Positions 441-64,000 of a DNA stretch of 64,000 bases are shown piece after piece. The stretch is from an uncultured Planctomycetales bacterium (GTDB lineage Bacteria; Omnitrophota; Gorgyraeia; Zapsychrales; JAHFFX01). The notes beneath the pieces were generated by a model. That model was not told where the DNA came from. It saw nothing but the letters and a program-made list of their open reading frames with translations, and did not search any database. The translations under genes and the position numbers were made by a program. The stretch spans positions 55,516 through 119,515 of the forward strand of contig CAYJRN010000004.1 of assembly GCA_964372915.1 (NCBI GenBank). Direction: 5' to 3'. Every line of letters starts with the position of its first letter. Within the stretch, counting starts at the first letter, position 1.

Positions 441-513
441 GACCCACTAGCTCATCTGGAAGAGCACTGCCCTTTTAAGGCAGGTGTGCCGCGTTCGAGT
501 CGCGGGTGGGTCA
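441..513 (+). tRNA. tRNA-Lys (anticodon TTT)
   Basis: Cloverleaf folded by hand: acceptor GACCCAC/GTGGGTC, D-stem GCTC/GAGC, anticodon stem CTGCC/GGCAG with loop CTTTTAA, T-arm CCGCG-TTCGAGT-CGCGG, discriminator A; no encoded CCA. Confidence 0.75.
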
Positions 514-755
514 TTCTACTTCGCTCGCACATTTTCATGTGCGAGCTTCGTAGGAACATCATTTTTCGCCAAATGAGCTTTTGTATTTGGCTTCGAAAAG
601 ACAGGTTCTCCTGCAAGGGGGCTTGCCCCTGCGAAGCTCAAGGCGATTCTACTTCGCTCCAGAATTTTCATGTTGGAGCTACGTAGGAATCGTTCCTTCG
701 AAGCTCAAACATAAGACATTTGAGCGAAGAAGAACGAAAGCACTTGAGCGAAGCA
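514..755. repeat. Inter-tRNA spacer with two ~45-bp direct repeat units (each a hairpin) plus short GAGCGAAG repeats
   Basis: attctacttcgctcgcacattttcatgtgcgagcttcgtaggaa (513-556) recurs as attctacttcgctccagaattttcatgttggagctacgtaggaa (~647-690); both contain a 10-bp inverted repeat; gagcgaag occurs three times near the 3' end. Confidence 0.6.
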
Positions 756-2882: not shown

Positions 2883-2892
2883 CAAGAGCACG

Positions 2893-3022
2893 GTGTAACA
2901 ACCCTGAGTCCCTCGACTTCGCTCGGGATGGTGAGCTTGTCGAACCACAAGTCCCGGACTTCCCCGGCCCGCCAGAGGCGACAGCCGGGACGGGCAGTCC
3001 GGGGTGTGTCGAAGGGTTGACC
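2893..3022. repeat. GC-rich intergenic repeat element A (related to copy B at 8337-8472)
   Basis: Shares GTGTAAC…TCGACT(T)CGCTC…CTGAGCTTGTCGAA…AGTCCGGGGTG(T/C)GTCGAAGGGTTGAC with 8367-8472; both copies encode the same spurious antisense peptide VNPSTHPGL. Confidence 0.65.
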
Positions 3023-3042
3023 GTAATCCATGGACCCCAAGG

Positions 3043-8336: not shown

Positions 8337-8472
8337 CACTGCGCGGCCCGCTTGGCGGGCCGCGCAGTGTAACCCATTCGACTCGCTCCGCTCGCTCATG
8401 GCCCTGAGCTTGTCGAAGGGCAACCCTGAGCAAGCCCCGGACTGAAGTCCGGGGTGCGTCGAAGGGTTGACG
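8337..8472. repeat. GC-rich intergenic repeat element B (15-bp perfect palindrome + element A-like core)
   Basis: cactgcgcggcccgc-ttgg-cgggccgcgcagtg followed by gtgtaac…cgactcgctc…ctgagcttgtcgaaggg…agtccggggtgcgtcgaagggttgac. Confidence 0.65.
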
Positions 8473-8500
8473 TTTGTATCATGAACCACGGGAGTGAATC

Positions 8501-11947: not shown

Positions 11948-12826
11948 ATGCAAAATCGCAAAGCTGTCTTCGGTATCATCGGGGATCCCCTCAGTCATAG
12001 CCTTTCTCCCGTCATGCATAATACGGCATTCAAGGAGCTCGGTTTGAATGCCGTCTACAAGCTCATTCCCTTGAAAGCAGAAGAATTGATGGTCTTTTTC
12101 GCGGCCTTGAAGGATGAGGAAAGCGACATCTTTGGGCTCAACGTGACGATCCCCTACAAGCAAAAGGTCGTCGAGTATATGGATTTTTTACAGCCGTTTG
12201 CCCAAGAGGTGAAGGCGGTCAACACCGTCGTTGTCTCGCCCAATCGGACCTTAACGGGAGTGAATACGGACGGACCCGGCTTTCTCGCGCACTTGGCGGA
12301 ACTTAAAGTTGATACGAAAAACAAAAAGATTGCCCTTTTAGGCGCCGGAGGGGCCGCGCGCGCGATCATCGCTTCGTTATGCCTTATTCCTGAAAGACCG
12401 TATTCCATTCGAGTCTACAATCACCATAAGGAAAAGACAGACGCGCTCATCAAAGATCTTAAGGAAAGAATGGATGTGAGCTTTGTAAGCTCGGTTGCTA
12501 CCCGCGAAGAATTAAACCTAGCATCGGCGGATTTGCTCATCAACGCCACTCCCTTGGGACTGAACAATGAGGATCCTTTGCCGATCGACGAGAATCTGAT
12601 CCATCGGAATTTGCTGGTGTACGACGTGATCTACAATCCTCAAGAAACGCGTTTACTGCGCGCGGCCCAAAAAAAAGGCGCTAAGACCGCCAACGGTCTT
12701 GGGATGTTGTTCTGTCAAGGGACACTTTCCTTTCATCACTGGATGGGATTTGAGCTGAGCGATAAAATCAAGATAAAAATGTGGAAAAGTCTTATTGACG
12801 ATTGTTCCTCTAAAAAGGATTTTTAA
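11948..12826 (+). CDS. aroE: Shikimate dehydrogenase
   Basis: VFGIIGDPLSHSLSPVMHN… substrate-binding N-terminus and GAGGAARA NADP motif. Confidence 0.85.
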   Translation: MQNRKAVFGIIGDPLSHSLSPVMHNTAFKELGLNAVYKLIPLKAEELMVFFAALKDEESDIFGLNVTIPYKQKVVEYMDFLQPFAQEVKAVNTVVVSPNRTLTGVNTDGPGFLAHLAELKVDTKNKKIALLGAGGAARAIIASLCLIPERPYSIRVYNHHKEKTDALIKDLKERMDVSFVSSVATREELNLASADLLINATPLGLNNEDPLPIDENLIHRNLLVYDVIYNPQETRLLRAAQKKGAKTANGLGMLFCQGTLSFHHWMGFELSDKIKIKMWKSLIDDCSSKKDF

Positions 12827-12828
12827 AA

Positions 12829-12936
12829 GAGAACAATCGTCGCCCCTGTTTTCCTTAAAACATATTCAGAGGAAACTGGGGCAGTCCTCACTTCCTCTGA
12901 AAATTTTTCAAAGGAAAGTGAGGGCGAGATACTGGC
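12829..12936. repeat. MITE-like repeat element C, copy 1 (forward)
   Basis: gagaacaatcgtcgcccctgttttccttaaaa…cctcacttcctctg…ggaaagtgagg…gatactggc is the reverse complement of 41919-42020 at ~90% identity; internal hairpin cctcacttcc/ggaaagtgagg. Confidence 0.7.
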
Positions 12937-12989
12937 TACCATAACTGTATTTAGAAAAGAAAAAGCCAGTAAAGAAGGAAGGCGGTAAC

Positions 12990-30323: not shown

Positions 30324-31174
30324 GGACAAAAAGCCCCTCGATGATTTCAGCTCGTAATCCTTTAAAGACCAAGGCCACTGCCAAAACGCTGAAGGTCATC
30401 GGTGTCATCCCGGCCCGCTATGGTTCCACGCGTCTTGCGGCCAAGGTGCTGGCGGATCTAAACGGCAAACCGATGATCCAGCATGTGTACGAGCGCGCGG
30501 CCAAGAGTCAATATTTGGATGAACTTTTGATTGCCTGCGACCATGAACGCGTTTTGAACAAAGCTAAAGAGTTCGGCGCCCAAGCGGTTTTAACGTCGGT
30601 CCATCACGCCTCGGGCACGGAACGGATCGCGGAAGCGGTGAAATCCATCGACGCGGAAATCGTCATTAACATTCAGGGAGATGAGCCGCTCATTCATCAT
30701 TCGGTGATCGATGATTTGGCAAAAGCCCTTTTGGATGATTCCAATTGTCTTATGGCCACGGCCATCAAGCCCGTTGCCGTTGGGAGCAAGGAGTTGGACG
30801 ATCCCAACATCGTCAAGGTCGTCATTGACAAGAATCACAATGCTTTGTATTTTTCGAGGTCGTTGATTCCTTATGTACGTAAATCTAGCGAAGGTTTGAG
30901 GTACTTTAAACATTTGGGGATTTATGCCTACCGGAAAAAGTTCTTGATGGGCTTTAAGGATTTACCGAAATCGCGTTTGGAAGAAACGGAAAGTTTGGAA
31001 CAGTTGAGAGTTCTGGAAGCCGGATACAAAATTAAGACCGTTGAAACCAACATCGAGACGATCAGCGTCGATGTGGAGGAAGATATCAAGAAGGTCGAGG
31101 AGTATTTGAAAAAATCATCATCATCGGCCACAACTTACGGAGTCTCGCCGAAGGCGGACGAACGTAAGTTGTGA
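30320..31174 (+). CDS. kdsB: 3-deoxy-manno-octulosonate cytidylyltransferase (CMP-Kdo synthetase)
   Basis: VIGVIPARYGSTRLAAKVLADLNGKPMIQHVYERA; ~30 aa N-terminal extension; the 3' end overlaps the start of repeat E copy 1. Confidence 0.85.
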   Translation: MRTKSPSMISARNPLKTKATAKTLKVIGVIPARYGSTRLAAKVLADLNGKPMIQHVYERAAKSQYLDELLIACDHERVLNKAKEFGAQAVLTSVHHASGTERIAEAVKSIDAEIVINIQGDEPLIHHSVIDDLAKALLDDSNCLMATAIKPVAVGSKELDDPNIVKVVIDKNHNALYFSRSLIPYVRKSSEGLRYFKHLGIYAYRKKFLMGFKDLPKSRLEETESLEQLRVLEAGYKIKTVETNIETISVDVEEDIKKVEEYLKKSSSSATTYGVSPKADERKL

Positions 31175-31309
31175 GCCGAACTCGACCCAGCACTTATTTT
31201 GCGACACGGTGTTAAAGCCAAAATAAGTGCTGGGTTCAATTCCGTCACAGACTTACGTCGCTCCAAATGGGAGCTTCCGTAAGTCTGGACGTCATTGAAG
31301 GAACATTAA
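31150..31309 (+). repeat. Intergenic repeat element E, copy 1
   Basis: …gacgaacgtaagttg…cccagcacttattttg-cgacacggtgttaaag-ccaaaataagtgctggg (16-bp perfect stem) + GGTTCAATTCCG + cagacttacg…cgtaagtctg + gtcattgaagga + ATG of kdsA. Confidence 0.7.
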
Positions 31310-35690: not shown

Positions 35691-35878
35691 GTTGAGCGCA
35701 CAACTTGCGGAGCGTTTTAGGCGACGTAAGTTGACAGCGCGAAACTCACCCAGCACTTATTTTGCGATACCAGATTTAAGCCAAAATAGGTGCTGGGTAA
35801 ATTCGCACTTATAAGTTACGTCGTCCGCCAAAGGCGGACTCCGTAACTTATGTGCTCATTTAAGGAGTTAACAGCAAC
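35691..35878 (+). repeat. Intergenic repeat element E, copy 2
   Basis: …ggcgacgtaagttgacagcgcgaaactcacccagcacttattttgcgatacc…ccaaaataggtgctggg + gcacttataagttacg…cgtaacttatgtgc hairpin with inner gtccgcc/ggcggac + tcatttaaggag + ATG of tig. Confidence 0.7.
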
Positions 35879-41879: not shown

Positions 41880-41918
41880 TTTCTACTGACCTTTTCCTTT
41901 CCAAAGACATTAAGGAAG

Positions 41919-42020
41919 GCCAGTATCTCGTCCTCACTTCCTCTGTATTTAAGGAAAGTGAGGACTGTCCCAGTTTCCTCTGGATCAATTTTAAGGAAAA
42001 CAGGGACGATGATTGTTCTC
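41919..42020. repeat. MITE-like repeat element C, copy 2 (inverted relative to copy 1)
   Basis: Reverse complement matches 12829-12936; flanked by inverted repeats gacgatgattgttctc / gaggaacaatcgtc. Confidence 0.7.
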
Positions 42021-42074
42021 TTAAGAAAACCCTGTTTAGAGGAACAATCGTCAATAAAAGAGGGTTATCCATTC

Positions 42075-60736: not shown

Positions 60737-60808
60737 TTGACTTTATCGCGGCAGGCCGGTATACTTAACGTAGATACAGAAGTATCTACAATGGAAGGGA
60801 GCAAAATT

Positions 60809-61093
60809 ATGAGTATAGCCATTAGCCTTTTGAAAGCCCCACACGTGGGTATCCGGGAGCTTAAGCAAGGGTTGTCTGATTTTCTTAAAAGAGATCAACC
60901 CCTCATCGTTACGGATCGGGGTGAGCCGACCAATGTCATTTTGCATTATGATGATTTTTTGGAACTTGTGGATATTATTGAAGAAATCAACGACCCGCGC
61001 ACAAGAAAACTTGTAGCCGAGGGACGCAGATTCATTAAAGAAGGTTCCTTAGGCATTCCAGTTTTTCCCGTCAAAGCCCTCAAACGCAAATGA
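60809..61093 (+). CDS. Phd/YefM-family type II antitoxin
   Basis: …VGIRELKQGLSDFLKRDQPLIVTDRGEPTNVILHYDDFLEL… matches the Phd/YefM pattern; strong RBS GGAAGGGAG; 4-nt overlap with the downstream toxin. Confidence 0.65.
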   Translation: MSIAISLLKAPHVGIRELKQGLSDFLKRDQPLIVTDRGEPTNVILHYDDFLELVDIIEEINDPRTRKLVAEGRRFIKEGSLGIPVFPVKALKRK

Positions 61094-61389
61094 AGTACGT
61101 CGCCAGGTTTCCTGCCGCCGCCATCGAGAGACACTTTCATAAAGCCTTGGAGGGTTTATCCCACGAAACCCATGAGAAAATCATGGAGGCCATTGCTTCT
61201 CTGCAAGATAATCCAAGACCTTTTGGCGCCAAACCGTTTACTCAGCTTAAACCTTCGGTGCATATTTATGATTATGTAGCACAATATCGGCTGCGCATCA
61301 GTGATTATCGTGTACTATATGATGTGGATGATCATAGAAAGATCGTCTGGATTCTTGCTTTAAGAAAGAGGAATGAAAAAACATATTAA
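61090..61389 (+). CDS. RelE/ParE-family type II toxin (mRNA interferase-like)
   Basis: 99 aa; …YRLRISDYRVLYDVDDHRKIVWILALRKR… RelE/StbE C-terminal signature. Confidence 0.7.
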   Translation: MKYVARFPAAAIERHFHKALEGLSHETHEKIMEAIASLQDNPRPFGAKPFTQLKPSVHIYDYVAQYRLRISDYRVLYDVDDHRKIVWILALRKRNEKTY

Positions 61390-61530
61390 ACCATCAAAAT
61401 TAACAAATAAGAGGGAAGATTTAAAAGAATTTGCCAAGCGCGCCCAAGAGCCAAGCATTTCTTTTGAAGAATTTCTAAAGAAACTTAAAGACGAAGGAAG
61501 AATATAGGGTAGGTGTATCAGGAGGTCGCA

Positions 61531-61794
61531 ATGCAGATTCATTGGAACAAAGACACCCAGGAGAAATTTAAAAAGATGATCGAGAAAATTCCGATTTTCC
61601 TGCGCGCTATCGCTGAGGACAAAGTCATGAAGAGAGCGGAAGGTCTCGCCACAAAAGACAATCGTTCGCAGGTGACCGAAAAAGACATGGTCGACGCCTT
61701 CTTTGCCGAAACCCCTTTCGGCTTTCATGGACCGATGAAGTGTGATATGGAAGAGATTGGGATTGATTATAAGAAGTATGGGTATGACAGTTGA
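61531..61794 (+). CDS. Small protein with PCP_red-like domain (hypothetical)
   Basis: W…EKFKKMIEKIPIFLRAIAEDKVMKRAE… resembles the ~45-aa PCP_red module found as standalone small proteins; RBS GGAGG 61521-61525. Confidence 0.4.
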   Translation: MQIHWNKDTQEKFKKMIEKIPIFLRAIAEDKVMKRAEGLATKDNRSQVTEKDMVDAFFAETPFGFHGPMKCDMEEIGIDYKKYGYDS

Positions 61795-61858
61795 GGATTA
61801 GAGGATTAAAAATCAAAGTTGACAAGCATACGCCAATGGCGCATACTGGTATCAGGAT

Positions 61859-62176
61859 ATGACCATCATTGAGACACCAATCTTTACTAAGAAAATCGTT
61901 GAGTATGTCTCGGATGAGGATTATCGAAGCCTGCAATTAACATTGATAGAACGTCCATCGGCCGGAAGCGTTATTCAAGGCACGGGCGGCTTGAGAAAAT
62001 ACCGTTGGGCCCATGAGGGGAAAGGCAAAAGCGGCGGGTTGCGAATCATCTATTTCTGGGACCCCAAGCATGAAGCAATTTACATGTTGCTGCCTTTCCG
62101 TAAGTCTGAAAAGAAAGATTTGACATCGGAGCAAAAGAAAATTCTCAAAAACGTGATAAAGGAGTATTTGACATGA
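61859..62176 (+). CDS. higB: HigB-like toxin (Gp49/COG4679-type RelE superfamily)
   Basis: …GGLRKYRWAHEGKGKSGGLRIIYFWDPKHEAIYMLLPFRKSEKKDLTSEQKKILKNVIKEY… matches the phage Gp49-like toxin family; toxin-first order with an overlapping HTH gene. Confidence 0.7.
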   Translation: MTIIETPIFTKKIVEYVSDEDYRSLQLTLIERPSAGSVIQGTGGLRKYRWAHEGKGKSGGLRIIYFWDPKHEAIYMLLPFRKSEKKDLTSEQKKILKNVIKEYLT

Positions 62177-62463
62177 AAAATCAGGAATTCAATGAGTTGG
62201 TTCAAAGCATACGCCAGGCCGGAGAGATCCAGAAAGGCAAACTTAAGGCCGGGCGGGTCTTCAAATTTCATCCTTTAGTGGTTAAACAGATCCGACAAAA
62301 ACTGCATCAATCGCAGAAGGATTTCGCGGAGATGATCGGGGTCAATCTTGCCACTCTGCAGAATTGGGAGCAGGGGCGTCGCCATCCGGAAGGGCCTGCC
62401 TTGACGCTGCTTAAAGTCGTCTCTAAAAATCCTCGCGCTGTTCTCAAAGCACTCCACGCGTAG
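62173..62463 (+). CDS. higA: HigA-like XRE-family HTH antitoxin
   Basis: …QKDFAEMIGVNLATLQNWEQGRRHPEGPALTLLKVV… HTH and C-terminal motif of COG5606-type HigA partners. Confidence 0.7.
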   Translation: MKNQEFNELVQSIRQAGEIQKGKLKAGRVFKFHPLVVKQIRQKLHQSQKDFAEMIGVNLATLQNWEQGRRHPEGPALTLLKVVSKNPRAVLKALHA

Positions 62464-62735
62464 ATTAAAATGATGGTCATTATTGAATGCATGGATGAAA
62501 TGATTCGGATTCGGGAAATAGTTTCCAATCTCAAGAGGAAAACTGTTTCATACCTGCTTTCCTTGATATGTTTTTAAAGATGAAGCAGGTACGTACCATC
62601 TTCCTTCTGGATAAAGTTTGCTGTGGAAAAGATGGTACGAAGTCAAAGGGGAAAGCGGGATTTACACTACAATTGTCGCCGGCCGGCAAGAATCTTGAAT
62701 TTCGATGGTGCGTGTCCACGGAATTCCAAAGAACG

Positions 62736-64000
62736 ATGAGCCAATTGTCGATGATGAATCAAAACTTCAAACTTTTCAAGAACGATCCATTCACTCGTGC
62801 CCGTCGTGGCGTCCTTACGACTCCTCACGGCACGATCCAAACGCCGTTTTTTATGCCGGTCGGTACCAACGGCACCGTGAAGACGCTGTCTTCCGAAGAC
62901 CTGCATGAAATGAATTCGCAGATCGTGCTGTCGAACACCTATCATTTGTTCATTCGTCCCGGAACGGATGTCATCAAAAACGCCGGAGGCTTGCACAAGT
63001 TTATGAATTGGGACAAGCCGATCTTGACCGACTCGGGTGGATATCAAGTATTCAGTCTTGCGCAATTACGCAAGCTCACCGATCAAGGCGTTGAGTTTCA
63101 ATCTCACTTCGACGGTAAAACGCATTTCTTAACCCCGGAAGATGTGATTTCTATTCAGCGTATTCTTGGTTCGGATATCATGATGCCGCTCGATGAATGC
63201 GCGCCTTTCCCATGCGAGCGCGACCATGCGCTTGAAGCTTTGGAACGAACGACGCGGTGGGCAAAACGGTCGAAGGAATTCTATTTTAGCGATTCCGACT
63301 GGCCTCTCGCCGGAACGCTTGCCCCGCCCCAGCGAGGCGGGGCTACGCTCGACGCTCGGACTCGCTCTCCCCGCCTTGCGGCGGGGAACCATGCCCGCTC
63401 GTCCTCACGACGTCCGGCTCAAGGCCAGTCGGAATCGCCGTCAGATCAATATCGTCAATTTTTGTTCGGCATCATCCAAGGCGCGGCGTTCAAGGATTTG
63501 CGCGAGCGCTCCGCCCGTGAAATCATCGACATAGGTTTTGATGGTTATGCCGTCGGCGGCGTGAGTGTGGGCGAGCCCGTGGACTTGATGTTCGAGACGC
63601 TCGAGTGGGTTGAACCGCTTTTACCGGAAGATCATCCGCGGTATTTTATGGGTATTGGTTATCCGGATCAGATCGTGCGCGCGGTGGGGATGGGGATGGA
63701 CATGTTCGACACCGTGATCCCGACGCGCTTTGGCCGTAACGGCAGCGCGTTCACGGACCGAGGCCGCTTGGCCATGCGCAATGCCGAGTACACCAGCGAC
63801 ACGCGGCCTTTGGATGAAAACTGCGCGTGTATTGTCTGCCGAAAATATTCCAGAAGTTATATCCGCCACCTTTTAAACGCCGGAGAAATCTTAGGCCTTA
63901 AACTGCTTGCGTATCACAACGTTACCTTCTATATTCATCTTATGGAACGGATGCGCGGAACAATCGAAGCGGGGACGTTCAAACAGTTTCACGATAATTT
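62736..64000 (+). CDS. tgt: Queuine tRNA-ribosyltransferase (3' end outside window), carrying a ~50-aa in-frame low-complexity insertion
   Basis: …ARRGVLTTPHGTIQTPFFMPVGTNGTVK…PILTDSGGYQVFSL…GFDGYAVGG…CxCxxC…H zinc site; open to the window edge (absent from the ORF track because no in-window stop); start 62736 or 62751. Confidence 0.88.
   Translation, partial: MSQLSMMNQNFKLFKNDPFTRARRGVLTTPHGTIQTPFFMPVGTNGTVKTLSSEDLHEMNSQIVLSNTYHLFIRPGTDVIKNAGGLHKFMNWDKPILTDSGGYQVFSLAQLRKLTDQGVEFQSHFDGKTHFLTPEDVISIQRILGSDIMMPLDECAPFPCERDHALEALERTTRWAKRSKEFYFSDSDWPLAGTLAPPQRGGATLDARTRSPRLAAGNHARSSSRRPAQGQSESPSDQYRQFLFGIIQGAAFKDLRERSAREIIDIGFDGYAVGGVSVGEPVDLMFETLEWVEPLLPEDHPRYFMGIGYPDQIVRAVGMGMDMFDTVIPTRFGRNGSAFTDRGRLAMRNAEYTSDTRPLDENCACIVCRKYSRSYIRHLLNAGEILGLKLLAYHNVTFYIHLMERMRGTIEAGTFKQFHDN
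63290..63450. repeat. GC-rich palindromic element inserted in-frame within tgt
   Basis: ~70% GC versus ~50% flanks; hairpins gccccgcc-ccagcga-ggcggggc and ccccgcc-ttgc-ggcgggg; contains cgactcgctc, also present in repeats A/B; lengthens the WAKRS…GIIQG spacing by ~50 residues. Confidence 0.55.

What the first reader, a model, noticed from the sequence alone, without database searches (positions are those of the whole stretch)
63290..63450. In-frame ~150-bp GC-rich palindromic insertion inside tgt
Tgt is recognisable end to end, including catalytic motifs and the CxCxxC…H zinc site. The segment between WAKRSKEF and LFGIIQG is about 50 residues longer than the typical spacing in Tgt proteins as I recall them (e.g. 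E. coli). It encodes low-complexity sequence (…PLAGTLAPPQRGGATLDARTRSPRLAAGNHARSSSRRPAQGQSES…). The DNA is ~70% GC against ~50% flanks. It carries two near-perfect hairpins and the cgactcgctc motif shared with intergenic repeats A/B. This suggests a repeat element inserted into a coding region while preserving frame. It may be a tolerated surface-loop insertion, or a sequencing/assembly artefact worth verifying.
Basis: partly seen in the sequence, partly recalled or inferred. Interest (0 to 1): 0.65.

Follow-up and report, generated by a model that had tools for sequence, protein, structure and literature searches.

The report
Palindromic repeat inserted in-frame in tgt
A 150-base, GC-rich, hairpin-forming repeat that normally lies between genes in Omnitrophota bacteria has landed inside the tRNA-modification gene tgt without breaking the reading frame. 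It adds a floppy 50-residue loop to the enzyme, a rare Rickettsia-like case of repeat DNA written into a protein.

Summary
Window 63289-63438 is an exactly 150-nt, 72% GC segment (window mean 49.6%) inside an otherwise normal tgt gene. It has 26-nt terminal inverted repeats and two perfect 8-bp hairpins. All 61 aligned Tgt orthologues, the closest 84% identical, lack it. Two independent assemblies carry identical DNA, so it is not an assembly artefact.

It belongs to a repeat family that matches no Rfam family. A full HMMER search with the 49-residue peptide, followed by a DNA pattern scan, found 12 further distinct DNA copies. One is in Omnitrophica WOR_2 GWA2_47_8; the rest are in metagenome contigs. 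All 12 are intergenic.

A covariance model scores members at 75-135 bits and controls at 20 bits or less. Stems covary strongly and almost only through Watson-Crick pairs. The unpaired junctions are the most conserved parts.

No target-site duplication, neighbouring transposase or coding constraint (pN/pS about 1) was found.

The insert falls in an alpha-to-beta loop on the non-catalytic face of the TIM barrel and is predicted to be disordered. Another Omnitrophota Tgt carries an unrelated palindromic insert two codons away.

The suggested link to intergenic repeats A/B is not supported. Verdict: a new member of a known kind (RPE/MITE/REP-like in-frame insertion).

The parts
62736..64000 (+). 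Host gene tgt (queuine tRNA-ribosyltransferase). The CDS is cut by the window end, and the full product is P0001. The gene caller's 490-aa version starts about 57 codons too early.
   Evidence: Translation. PF01702 precomputed for P0001. PDB TGT hits at E = 6e-121. The AlphaFold model matches Z. mobilis TGT at TM 0.94-0.95.
63289..63438 (+). The inserted element: 150 nt, 50 codons, 72% GC, stop-free in all three + frames. It starts at codon position 2 of Ser185 and ends at position 1 of the following Pro codon.
   Evidence: Absent from all orthologues. Covariance model R1 hit of 118.3 bits at 63297-63430.
63289..63305 (+). Outer stem P1, 5' arm (GCGATTCCGACTGGCCT). It pairs perfectly with 63422-63438.
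63422..63438 (+). Outer stem P1, 3' arm (AGGCCAGTCGGAATCGC).
63309..63314 (+). P2 5' strand, GCCGGA. It pairs with TCCGGC at 63413-63418 and is nearly invariant across the family, followed by the conserved ACGCTYG.
63413..63418 (+). P2 3' strand, TCCGGC, preceded by the conserved ACG.
63321..63343 (+). Hairpin P3: 8-bp stem GCCCCGCC/GGCGGGGC with the family-conserved 7-nt loop CCAGCGA.
   Evidence: 7 of 8 pairs covary across the family and 98% of cells are paired.
63353..63361 (+). P4 5' strand (CG...GGAC). It is interrupted in this copy and pairs with 63401-63409.
63368..63387 (+). Hairpin P5: 8-bp stem TCCCCGCC/GGCGGGGA with loop TTGC.
63389..63409 (+). Conserved junction CCATGCCCGCTC, then the P4 3' strand (GTCC...CG).

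Best explanation
The 150 nt at 63289-63438 is one copy of a family of GC-rich, multi-hairpin palindromic repeat elements that matches no Rfam family. Members are about 140-170 nt long. They have five helices:
- a long outer stem P1;
- a conserved 6-bp P2;
- a P3 hairpin with the loop CCAGCGA;
- an arm made of P4 and P5.

The family occurs in Omnitrophota and otherwise sits between housekeeping genes. One copy entered tgt after this lineage split from its nearest sampled relatives.

It survived for three reasons:
- It adds exactly 50 codons.
- It has no stop codon in this orientation.
- It landed at the N-terminal end of a barrel strand, in an alpha-to-beta loop on the face opposite the active site.

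The ribosome reads through it and the enzyme carries an extra disordered Arg/Ser/Ala/Pro/Gly-rich loop.

Shown: the insertion, family membership, conserved structure and loop position. Inferred: read-through translation, retained Tgt activity and the way the element moves. The likeliest route is a hairpin-recognising, duplication-free mechanism supplied in trans, as for REP/RAYT or IS200-type elements, because there is no target-site duplication and the termini are not the conserved part.
For: **It is an insertion**
- All 61 aligned orthologues, the closest 84% identical over aligned positions, lack the segment.
- 55 query residues face 7 in Z. mobilis TGT.

**It is not an artefact**
- DNA is identical in Logan assemblies of ERR4904392 and ERR3478686. 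The protein index also lists an NCBI contig of 138,815 bp.

**It belongs to a family**
- The 49-aa peptide finds P0121, P0122 and P0123 at 61-71% identity.
- Full-length DNA copies are 84.7% (L082) and 82.4% (L080) identical. L080 carries two more diverged copies within 1 kb.
- A core-pattern scan adds L090, L108, L114, L117, L120, L124, L132 and L138.
- Model R1 scores the 13 distinct DNA members, the window copy included, at 75-135 bits. Everything else scores 20 bits or less in 1.0 Mb of other DNA.
- P0123 comes from Omnitrophica WOR_2 bacterium GWA2_47_8.

**The structure is conserved**
- 86.8% of cells are paired against 67% in shuffles. 19 of 28 pairs change on both sides (0 of 500 shuffles reach this). 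Slid controls give 51% or less.
- P1 is present in the members tested, at 11-23 paired positions, yet its arms are only 35% identical between members.

**It is tolerated**
- The insert is residues 242-290 of P0001. It is coil, with pLDDT below 50 for 254-289, and lies between helix 218-241 and strand 298-303. The rest of the model matches TGT at TM 0.94.
- All catalytic and zinc motifs are intact.
- An unrelated 114-nt palindromic insert sits two codons away in another Omnitrophota Tgt, P0014.
- pN/pS among copies is 1.06 in the tgt frame, so the peptide is a by-product of the DNA sequence.
Against: - There is only one copy in the 64-kb window, even with model filters off. The rest of the source genome could not be searched.
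- No target-site duplication flanks this copy or the three close copies. No transposase lies next to any copy. Mobility is therefore inferred only from presence versus absence in tgt.
- The termini are less conserved than the internal junctions, which is unlike a classical MITE.
- Translation through a hairpin of -92 kcal/mol and activity of the enlarged enzyme are untested.
- The two Logan runs may sample the same site, so they do not show fixation across populations.
Confidence: 0.75

Rival explanations
1. The element acts at the RNA level inside tgt. Its 17+6-bp outer duplex would be cut, for example by RNase III, or would stall ribosomes. The insertion would then down-regulate or silence tgt rather than being a neutral loop.
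For: - The fold is very stable: -92 kcal/mol, z = -7.1.
- By my reading of the flanking genes, 10 of 13 family copies lie in the sense orientation of neighbouring transcription units. These include copies within operons and directly after a 5S rRNA gene.
- Related palindromic repeats (Correia, ERIC, REP) are known from the literature to act on mRNA; this rests on my own knowledge and the review PMC10969869.
Against: - The tgt frame and all catalytic motifs are intact.
- Stems are almost purely Watson-Crick: 309 WC pairs, 1 G-U and 7 A-C. That is unusual for a structure selected only as RNA.
- No expression data are available.
Confidence: 0.12
2. The family is a functional structured RNA or single-stranded DNA element rather than selfish DNA. 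The tgt copy would be an accidental or regulatory placement, and the more stable antisense strand could be the active one.
For: - Unpaired junctions and loops are more conserved (0.80) than stems P3 (0.67), P4 (0.63) and P1 (0.60).
- Covariation is strong.
- The antisense RNA folds better in 12 of 13 members. For the window copy it is -117 against -92 kcal/mol.
- The L132 copy and the P0122 ORF lie in a similar gene context, next to a Macro-NUDIX gene, which may mean long retention at one locus.
Against: - No Rfam family matches.
- G-U pairs are nearly absent on either strand.
- No conserved neighbouring gene, promoter or terminator was seen.
- Several diverged copies cluster in one intergenic region (L080), as repeats do.
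- The proposed P3-loop pseudoknot is not kept in all members.
Confidence: 0.1
3. It is an intragenic inverton. The 26-nt inverted repeats would let a recombinase flip the segment, switching tgt off, because the flipped orientation puts TGA at the sixth codon.
For: - Inverted repeats flank a segment that lies wholly inside a CDS.
- The reverse orientation has a stop in every frame.
- Intragenic invertons are documented (PMC10028968).
Against: - Both readable assemblies, and the window, show the same orientation.
- The other 12 DNA copies are intergenic.
- No neighbouring recombinase gene came to notice, although I made no dedicated search of the window.
- The interior is itself hairpin-rich, which invertons do not need.
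Confidence: 0.02
4. It is an assembly or sequencing artefact, or an ancestral lineage-specific loop rather than an insertion.
For: No second copy in the window. The source genome is not among the species representatives that were scanned.
Against: - Sequence is identical in independent assemblies.
- The segment belongs to a conserved family found elsewhere.
- All orthologues lack it.
- Its composition is about 4 sd above the window mean.
Confidence: 0.01

Closest known systems
Rickettsia palindromic elements (RPE; Ogata et al. 2000 and 2002, as summarised in PMC10969869)
   Same: Palindromic repeats of about 150 bp that insert in-frame into housekeeping genes. They add a peptide that is compatible with the host protein's fold.
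   Different: - Different phylum, and GC-rich rather than AT-rich.
- Only 1 of the 13 known DNA copies here is intragenic.
- There is no coding constraint on the peptide (pN/pS 1.06).
- Sequence homology to RPEs was not tested.
Bacterial MITEs such as Correia/NEMIS, ERIC and QMITE (PMC10969869, PMC5896051)
   Same: Similar size, terminal inverted repeats and long hairpin when transcribed. Mostly intergenic or intra-operon, with occasional in-frame fusion to ORFs.
   Different: - No target-site duplication.
- The termini are the least conserved part, while the internal unpaired junctions are the most conserved.
- No parent insertion sequence was found.
REP / REPIN / BIME elements mobilised by RAYT transposases (PMC3733652)
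   Same: GC-rich hairpins in intergenic positions, with no target-site duplication. Head-to-head neighbours occur (L080 3542-3670 + and 3702-3838 -). Pairing is kept by compensatory changes.
   Different: - Here the unit is a 5-helix composite of 140-170 nt, not a 20-40-nt palindrome.
- The GTAG tag is present only in the window copy; other members have GAAG or GCAG.
- Presence of a RAYT gene is unknown.
The unrelated in-frame insert in Tgt of another Omnitrophota (P0014, locus L078 892-1005)
   Same: Same loop of the same enzyme, two codons upstream. It is palindromic, in-frame, and lies in a tgt gene next to trmD.
   Different: - 114 nt at 34% GC, with 13-nt inverted repeats and a TTTAT flanking duplication.
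- Its ends resemble the window's A/B repeats (3-6 of 500 shuffles score as well), not the tgt element.

Membership tests
Tgt / queuine tRNA-ribosyltransferase (host gene) | PF01702 fold, catalytic Asp residues (DSGG, DEC, MFD) and the CxCxxC...H zinc site | tested here: met
   E = 6e-121 to Z. mobilis TGT; TM 0.94-0.95.
MITE | Short, with no transposase gene | tested here: met
   150 nt, and pN/pS about 1 in all frames.
MITE | Terminal inverted repeats | tested here: met
   26 nt at 88% complementarity, with the outer 17 nt perfect.
MITE | Target-site duplication flanking the element | tested here: not met
   No direct repeat flanks the window copy, L082, L108 or L080b. A 2-bp GC cannot be told apart from the inverted repeat itself.
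MITE | Termini conserved among copies and shared with a parent insertion sequence | tested here: not met
   P1 arms are 35% identical between members, while internal junctions score 0.80. No transposase lies next to any copy.
MITE / repeat family in general | Several copies at unrelated loci | tested here: met
   13 distinct DNA members, three of them in one genome contig (L080). Only one copy in this window.
RPE-like in-frame palindromic element | In-frame insertion into a conserved protein at a structurally tolerant site | tested here: met
   50 codons in a disordered alpha-to-beta loop.
RPE-like in-frame palindromic element | Frequent intragenic location across the family, with a conserved encoded peptide | tested here: not met
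   12 of 13 DNA copies are intergenic. pN/pS is 1.06.
RPE (Rickettsia families RPE-1 to RPE-10) | Sequence homology to the Rickettsia elements | not tested
   No RPE sequences were compared.
REP / REPIN | A conserved GTAG or CGTC tetranucleotide at the foot of a 20-40-nt palindrome | tested here: not met
   The antisense foot of P3 is GTAG only in the window copy; other members have GCAG or GAAG.
REP / REPIN | A RAYT transposase gene in the same genome | not testable with these tools
Intragenic inverton | Both orientations present in the population | not testable with these tools
   No reads are available. The readable assemblies and the window show one orientation.
Any Rfam RNA family, including ribozymes and group I/II introns | A covariance-model match | tested here: not met
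   Best hit is 25.7 bits against a gathering score of 38, to an unrelated eukaryotic UTR element. Five other members give no hit at the element.

The most novel reading that the evidence does not exclude
The family may not be an ordinary selfish MITE. It could be a new class of structured nucleic-acid element of Omnitrophota, acting as RNA or as single-stranded DNA. Its conserved unpaired junctions (GGAACGCUYG, loop CCAGCGA, CGCUCG, UGCCCGCU, ACG) would be recognised by a dedicated protein, while all five stems drift freely under strict Watson-Crick compensation. The tgt copy would then be the first evidence that such an element can move, and that it does so without a target-site duplication.
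Probability: 0.25. Interest if true: 0.7.

Novelty: new member of a known kind. Interest (0 to 1): 0.5.

Why it matters
- It extends the RPE phenomenon, palindromic repeat DNA read through as part of a housekeeping enzyme, from Rickettsia to an uncultured free-living phylum.
- Together with the independent insert in P0014, it suggests that the alpha-to-beta loop before strand LFGIxQG of Tgt tolerates insertions.
- It brings to light a five-helix repeat family that matches no Rfam family, with strong covariation and conserved junctions. A calibrated model (R1) now exists to survey it across Omnitrophota genomes.
- It shows a practical limit of gene annotation. The element produces spurious small ORFs (P0121, P0122) and spurious N-terminal extensions (P0123).

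Tried and rejected
- **Second copy in the window.** blastn, nhmmer and the covariance model with filters off found none.
- **Terminal-repeat scans of genome contigs.** The two-arm pattern gave 0 hits. The 17-mer gave 75 hits, all single chance matches with no partner arm.
- **Two-arm scan of metagenome contigs.** 0 hits. The termini vary too much for exact patterns.
- **Word-index protein searches.** A six-frame translation and a 13-member six-frame profile both returned only P0001. That index misses this low-complexity family. The exhaustive HMMER search was what worked.
- **Viral contigs.** No members.
- **Kinship with intergenic repeats A/B.** Rejected on shuffle statistics and the covariance model.
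- **Pseudoknot between the P3 loop (AGCGAG) and CUCGCU.** One compensatory change is seen in one subfamily. The target is missing in L120 and L080c and mismatched in L108 and L114, so I dropped it.
- **Intein, group I/II intron, ribozyme.** The element is too short and has no Rfam match.
- **Translational bypass.** Not needed, since the frame is open.
- **A peptide-coding module.** Rejected by pN/pS of about 1.
- **REP with a GTAG tag.** The tag is not conserved.

Full report
**1. What is in the sequence**

The tgt reading frame starts at 62736 on the + strand and runs off the window end. It has the catalytic DSGGYQ, PLDEC and DMFDTV motifs and the CxCxxC...H zinc site.

Between WAKRSKEFYFS and PSDQYRQFLFGIIQG lie 150 nt, at 63289-63438, that orthologues do not have. 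The segment has these features:
- It is 72% GC in a window of 49.6% GC. It includes the highest-GC 150-nt stretch of the whole 64 kb, about 4 sd above the mean.
- It has 26-nt terminal inverted repeats at 63289-63314 and 63413-63438. They are 88% complementary, and the outer 17 nt are perfect.
- It has two perfect 8-bp hairpins, at 63321-63343 and 63368-63387. Their stem motif CCCCGCC...GGCGGGG occurs nowhere else in the window, with 0 expected by chance.
- As RNA it folds to -92.3 kcal/mol (z = -7.1). As DNA the z-score is -6.8. The antisense RNA reaches -117.1 kcal/mol (z = -10.3).
- It is open in all three + frames and has one stop in each - frame.

**2. It is an insertion and not an artefact**

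A search of 5.8 billion proteins shows that the host is an Omnitrophota bacterium. P0001 is the window's own protein, and every other Tgt listed is 370-412 aa long.
- In alignments of 10 and 62 sequences, only P0001 has the 48-50 extra residues. The closest orthologue, P0002, is 84% identical over aligned positions.
- Against Z. mobilis TGT, 55 query residues correspond to 7.
- Exactly the same protein is encoded on Logan assemblies of two different sequencing runs, ERR4904392 and ERR3478686. The index also lists an NCBI contig of 138,815 bp.
- The two Logan contigs are 100% identical to the window over 5,805 and 3,195 nt, element included.

**3. It belongs to a repeat family**

Early searches failed:
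- Exact-pattern scans based on the terminal repeats found nothing beyond chance.
- The word-index protein search returned only P0001.

The exhaustive HMMER search with the 49-residue insert peptide then found three proteins carrying the same peptide at 61-71% identity.
- P0121 and P0122 are spurious small ORFs.
- P0123 is a 660-aa protein of Omnitrophica WOR_2 bacterium GWA2_47_8, in which the match lies in an N-terminal extension that is probably spurious.

Their DNA holds full-length copies. L082 179-325 is 84.7% identical over all 150 nt, and L080 4379-4523 is 82.4% identical. Two more diverged copies lie within 1 kb in L080.

A scan of JGI metagenomes with the conserved core (GCCGGAACG...TGCCCG...ACGTCCGGC) returned 62 loci. 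By inspection, about 11 carry true members.

I built a covariance model from 13 distinct members (R1: 132 positions, 28 base pairs).
- Members score 75-135 bits.
- Everything else scores 20 bits or less, across 489 kb of pattern-matched loci and 543 kb of unrelated bacterial DNA.
- In the window it finds only the tgt copy, even with filters off.
- No Rfam family matches the window copy or five other members.

**4. Anatomy and evolution of the family**

The members share one architecture:
- a long outer stem P1;
- a small internal loop;
- a nearly invariant 6-bp P2 (GCCGGA/TCCGGC);
- a hairpin P3 whose 7-nt loop CCAGCGA is conserved;
- an arm of P4 and P5.

On the model alignment, 86.8% of pair cells are standard pairs against 67% after shuffling. 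19 of 28 pairs show changes on both sides, which 0 of 500 shuffles reach. Sliding the partners by one column drops pairing to 51% or less. P3 is 98% paired, with up to four pair types per position.

P1 spans 11-23 paired positions in the 12 members where my script parsed it. The minimum-free-energy folds show an outer stem in all 13. Its arms are only 35% identical between members.

Pairing is almost purely Watson-Crick: 309 WC pairs, 1 G-U and 7 A-C. This points to a constraint on DNA, or on both strands. It could also come from arm-to-arm correction in quasi-palindromes, which is my inference.

Unpaired core columns are more conserved (0.80) than stems P3 (0.67), P4 (0.63) or the P1 flanks (0.60). 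This is unlike a classical MITE, whose termini are the conserved part.

I found no target-site duplication at the window copy or at its three close relatives.

Among four close copies, pN/pS is 1.06 in the tgt frame and 0.79 and 0.87 in the other two frames. The shared 'peptide' is therefore a by-product of DNA conservation.

**5. Where the other copies sit**

All 12 other DNA copies are intergenic:
- L108 lies between a thiE-associated gene and thiE.
- L132 lies between a CCA-adding enzyme gene and a Macro-NUDIX gene. The P0122 ORF also precedes a Macro-NUDIX gene.
- L114 lies between type II secretion genes.
- L124 lies directly after a 5S rRNA gene, and L082 lies upstream of two tRNA genes.
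- L080 has a cluster of three copies, two of them head to head.

The neighbours tested against Pfam are ordinary cellular genes and none is a transposase. By my reading of the flanks, 10 of 13 copies are in the sense orientation of the surrounding transcription units. This is a weak bias (one-sided binomial p about 0.05).

**6. Why tgt tolerates it**

An AlphaFold2 model built with 62 sequences has a mean pLDDT of 81.
- The insert is residues 242-290 of P0001. It is coil, with pLDDT below 50 for residues 254-289.
- It lies between helix 218-241 and strand 298-303 (LFGIIQ).
- The rest of the model superposes on Z. mobilis TGT structures at TM 0.94-0.95 and about 2 A rmsd.

In (beta/alpha)8 barrels the active site lies at the C-terminal ends of the strands. 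A loop that enters the N-terminal end of a strand is therefore on the opposite face. This follows from established TIM-barrel topology and is an inference for this enzyme.

Length divisible by three (chance 1/3) and an open frame (about 0.4 at this GC) are the filters any surviving insertion must pass. Neither is remarkable on its own.

Another Omnitrophota Tgt, P0014, independently carries an unrelated insert two codons upstream in the same loop.
- It is 114 nt long and 34% GC.
- It has 13-nt inverted repeats and a TTTAT flanking duplication.

**7. The claimed link to repeats A/B**

Repeats A (about 2890-3025) and B (about 8366-8475) are related to each other (0 of 500 shuffles score as well). 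B is also related to an intergenic repeat in L078 (1 of 500), and A and B to the ends of the P0014 insert (3-6 of 500).

They are not related to the tgt element, for which 57-404 of 500 shuffles score as well. The element has GGACTCGCTC, not CGACTCGCTC.

**8. Verdict**

The closest known phenomenon is the Rickettsia palindromic element (PMC10969869). The family also resembles REP/REPIN and ERIC/Correia-type elements. It fails the MITE criteria of a target-site duplication and conserved termini, and the REP criterion of a conserved GTAG tag.

Still open are the mechanism of movement, whether the element has a function as RNA or DNA, and whether the enlarged Tgt is active. I rate it a new member of a known kind, of moderate interest. 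There is a smaller chance that the family is a distinct structured element.

Noticed in passing
L078 892-1005 (tgt CDS 372-1610; Logan SRR28521197): Another Omnitrophota Tgt (P0014) has an independent 114-nt, 34% GC, in-frame palindromic insert two codons upstream of the window's insertion point. It has 13-nt inverted repeats (CTTCGACTCTTTT / AAATGAGTCGAAG) and a TTTAT flanking duplication. Its ends resemble the window's repeats A/B.
   Followed up: partly
window 2890-3025 and 8366-8475; also L078 1620-1745: Intergenic GC-rich repeats A and B share GAGCTTGTCGAA and a right end AGTCCGGGGTGYGTCGAAGGGTTGAC. They form a second family, unrelated to the tgt element. A relative lies between tgt and trmD in another Omnitrophota contig.
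   Followed up: partly
window 60737-62463: Between queA and tgt lies a run of small toxin-antitoxin-like genes: PhdYeFM/ParE, a DUF2621 gene, and RelE with an MqsA/HTH antitoxin. In P0002 and P0014, trmD, rplS and rnhB follow tgt. The tgt neighbourhood therefore seems to collect small mobile modules.
   Followed up: no
window 31162-31302, 35748-35866 and 1124-1150: A third repeat family: a 40-nt-arm hairpin (ACCCAGCACTTATTTTG...CAAAATAAGTGCTGGGT) followed by TCCGTAAGT...CATTGAAGGA. It is present two to three times in the window.
   Followed up: no
window 513-556 and 646-689: Two 44-nt hairpin repeats (ATTCTACTTCGCTCG...) lie between the tRNA-Lys and tRNA-Leu genes.
   Followed up: no
window 12792-12971 and 41884-42057: Long inverted repeats lie 29 kb apart (102 nt at 88% and 56 nt at 79%). 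They could be a duplicated gene fragment or the ends of a larger mobile region.
   Followed up: no
L080 3542-4516 (Omnitrophica WOR_2 GWA2_47_8, MHFY01000032.1): Three diverged copies of the tgt-type element lie within 1 kb, two of them head to head. The region is crowded with PF05635 (23S rRNA intervening-sequence protein) and bAvd-like genes. The gene caller fused one copy onto the N-terminus of a 660-aa protein.
   Followed up: partly
L124 2270-2389: A family member lies directly downstream of a 5S rRNA gene (2414-2530) on the same strand, where the end of an rRNA operon would be expected.
   Followed up: no
window 62567-62735: The public gene call for this tgt (P0001, 490 aa) starts about 57 codons upstream of the start supported by orthologues (62736). 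These residues have pLDDT below 50 and no counterpart in other Tgt proteins.
   Followed up: partly
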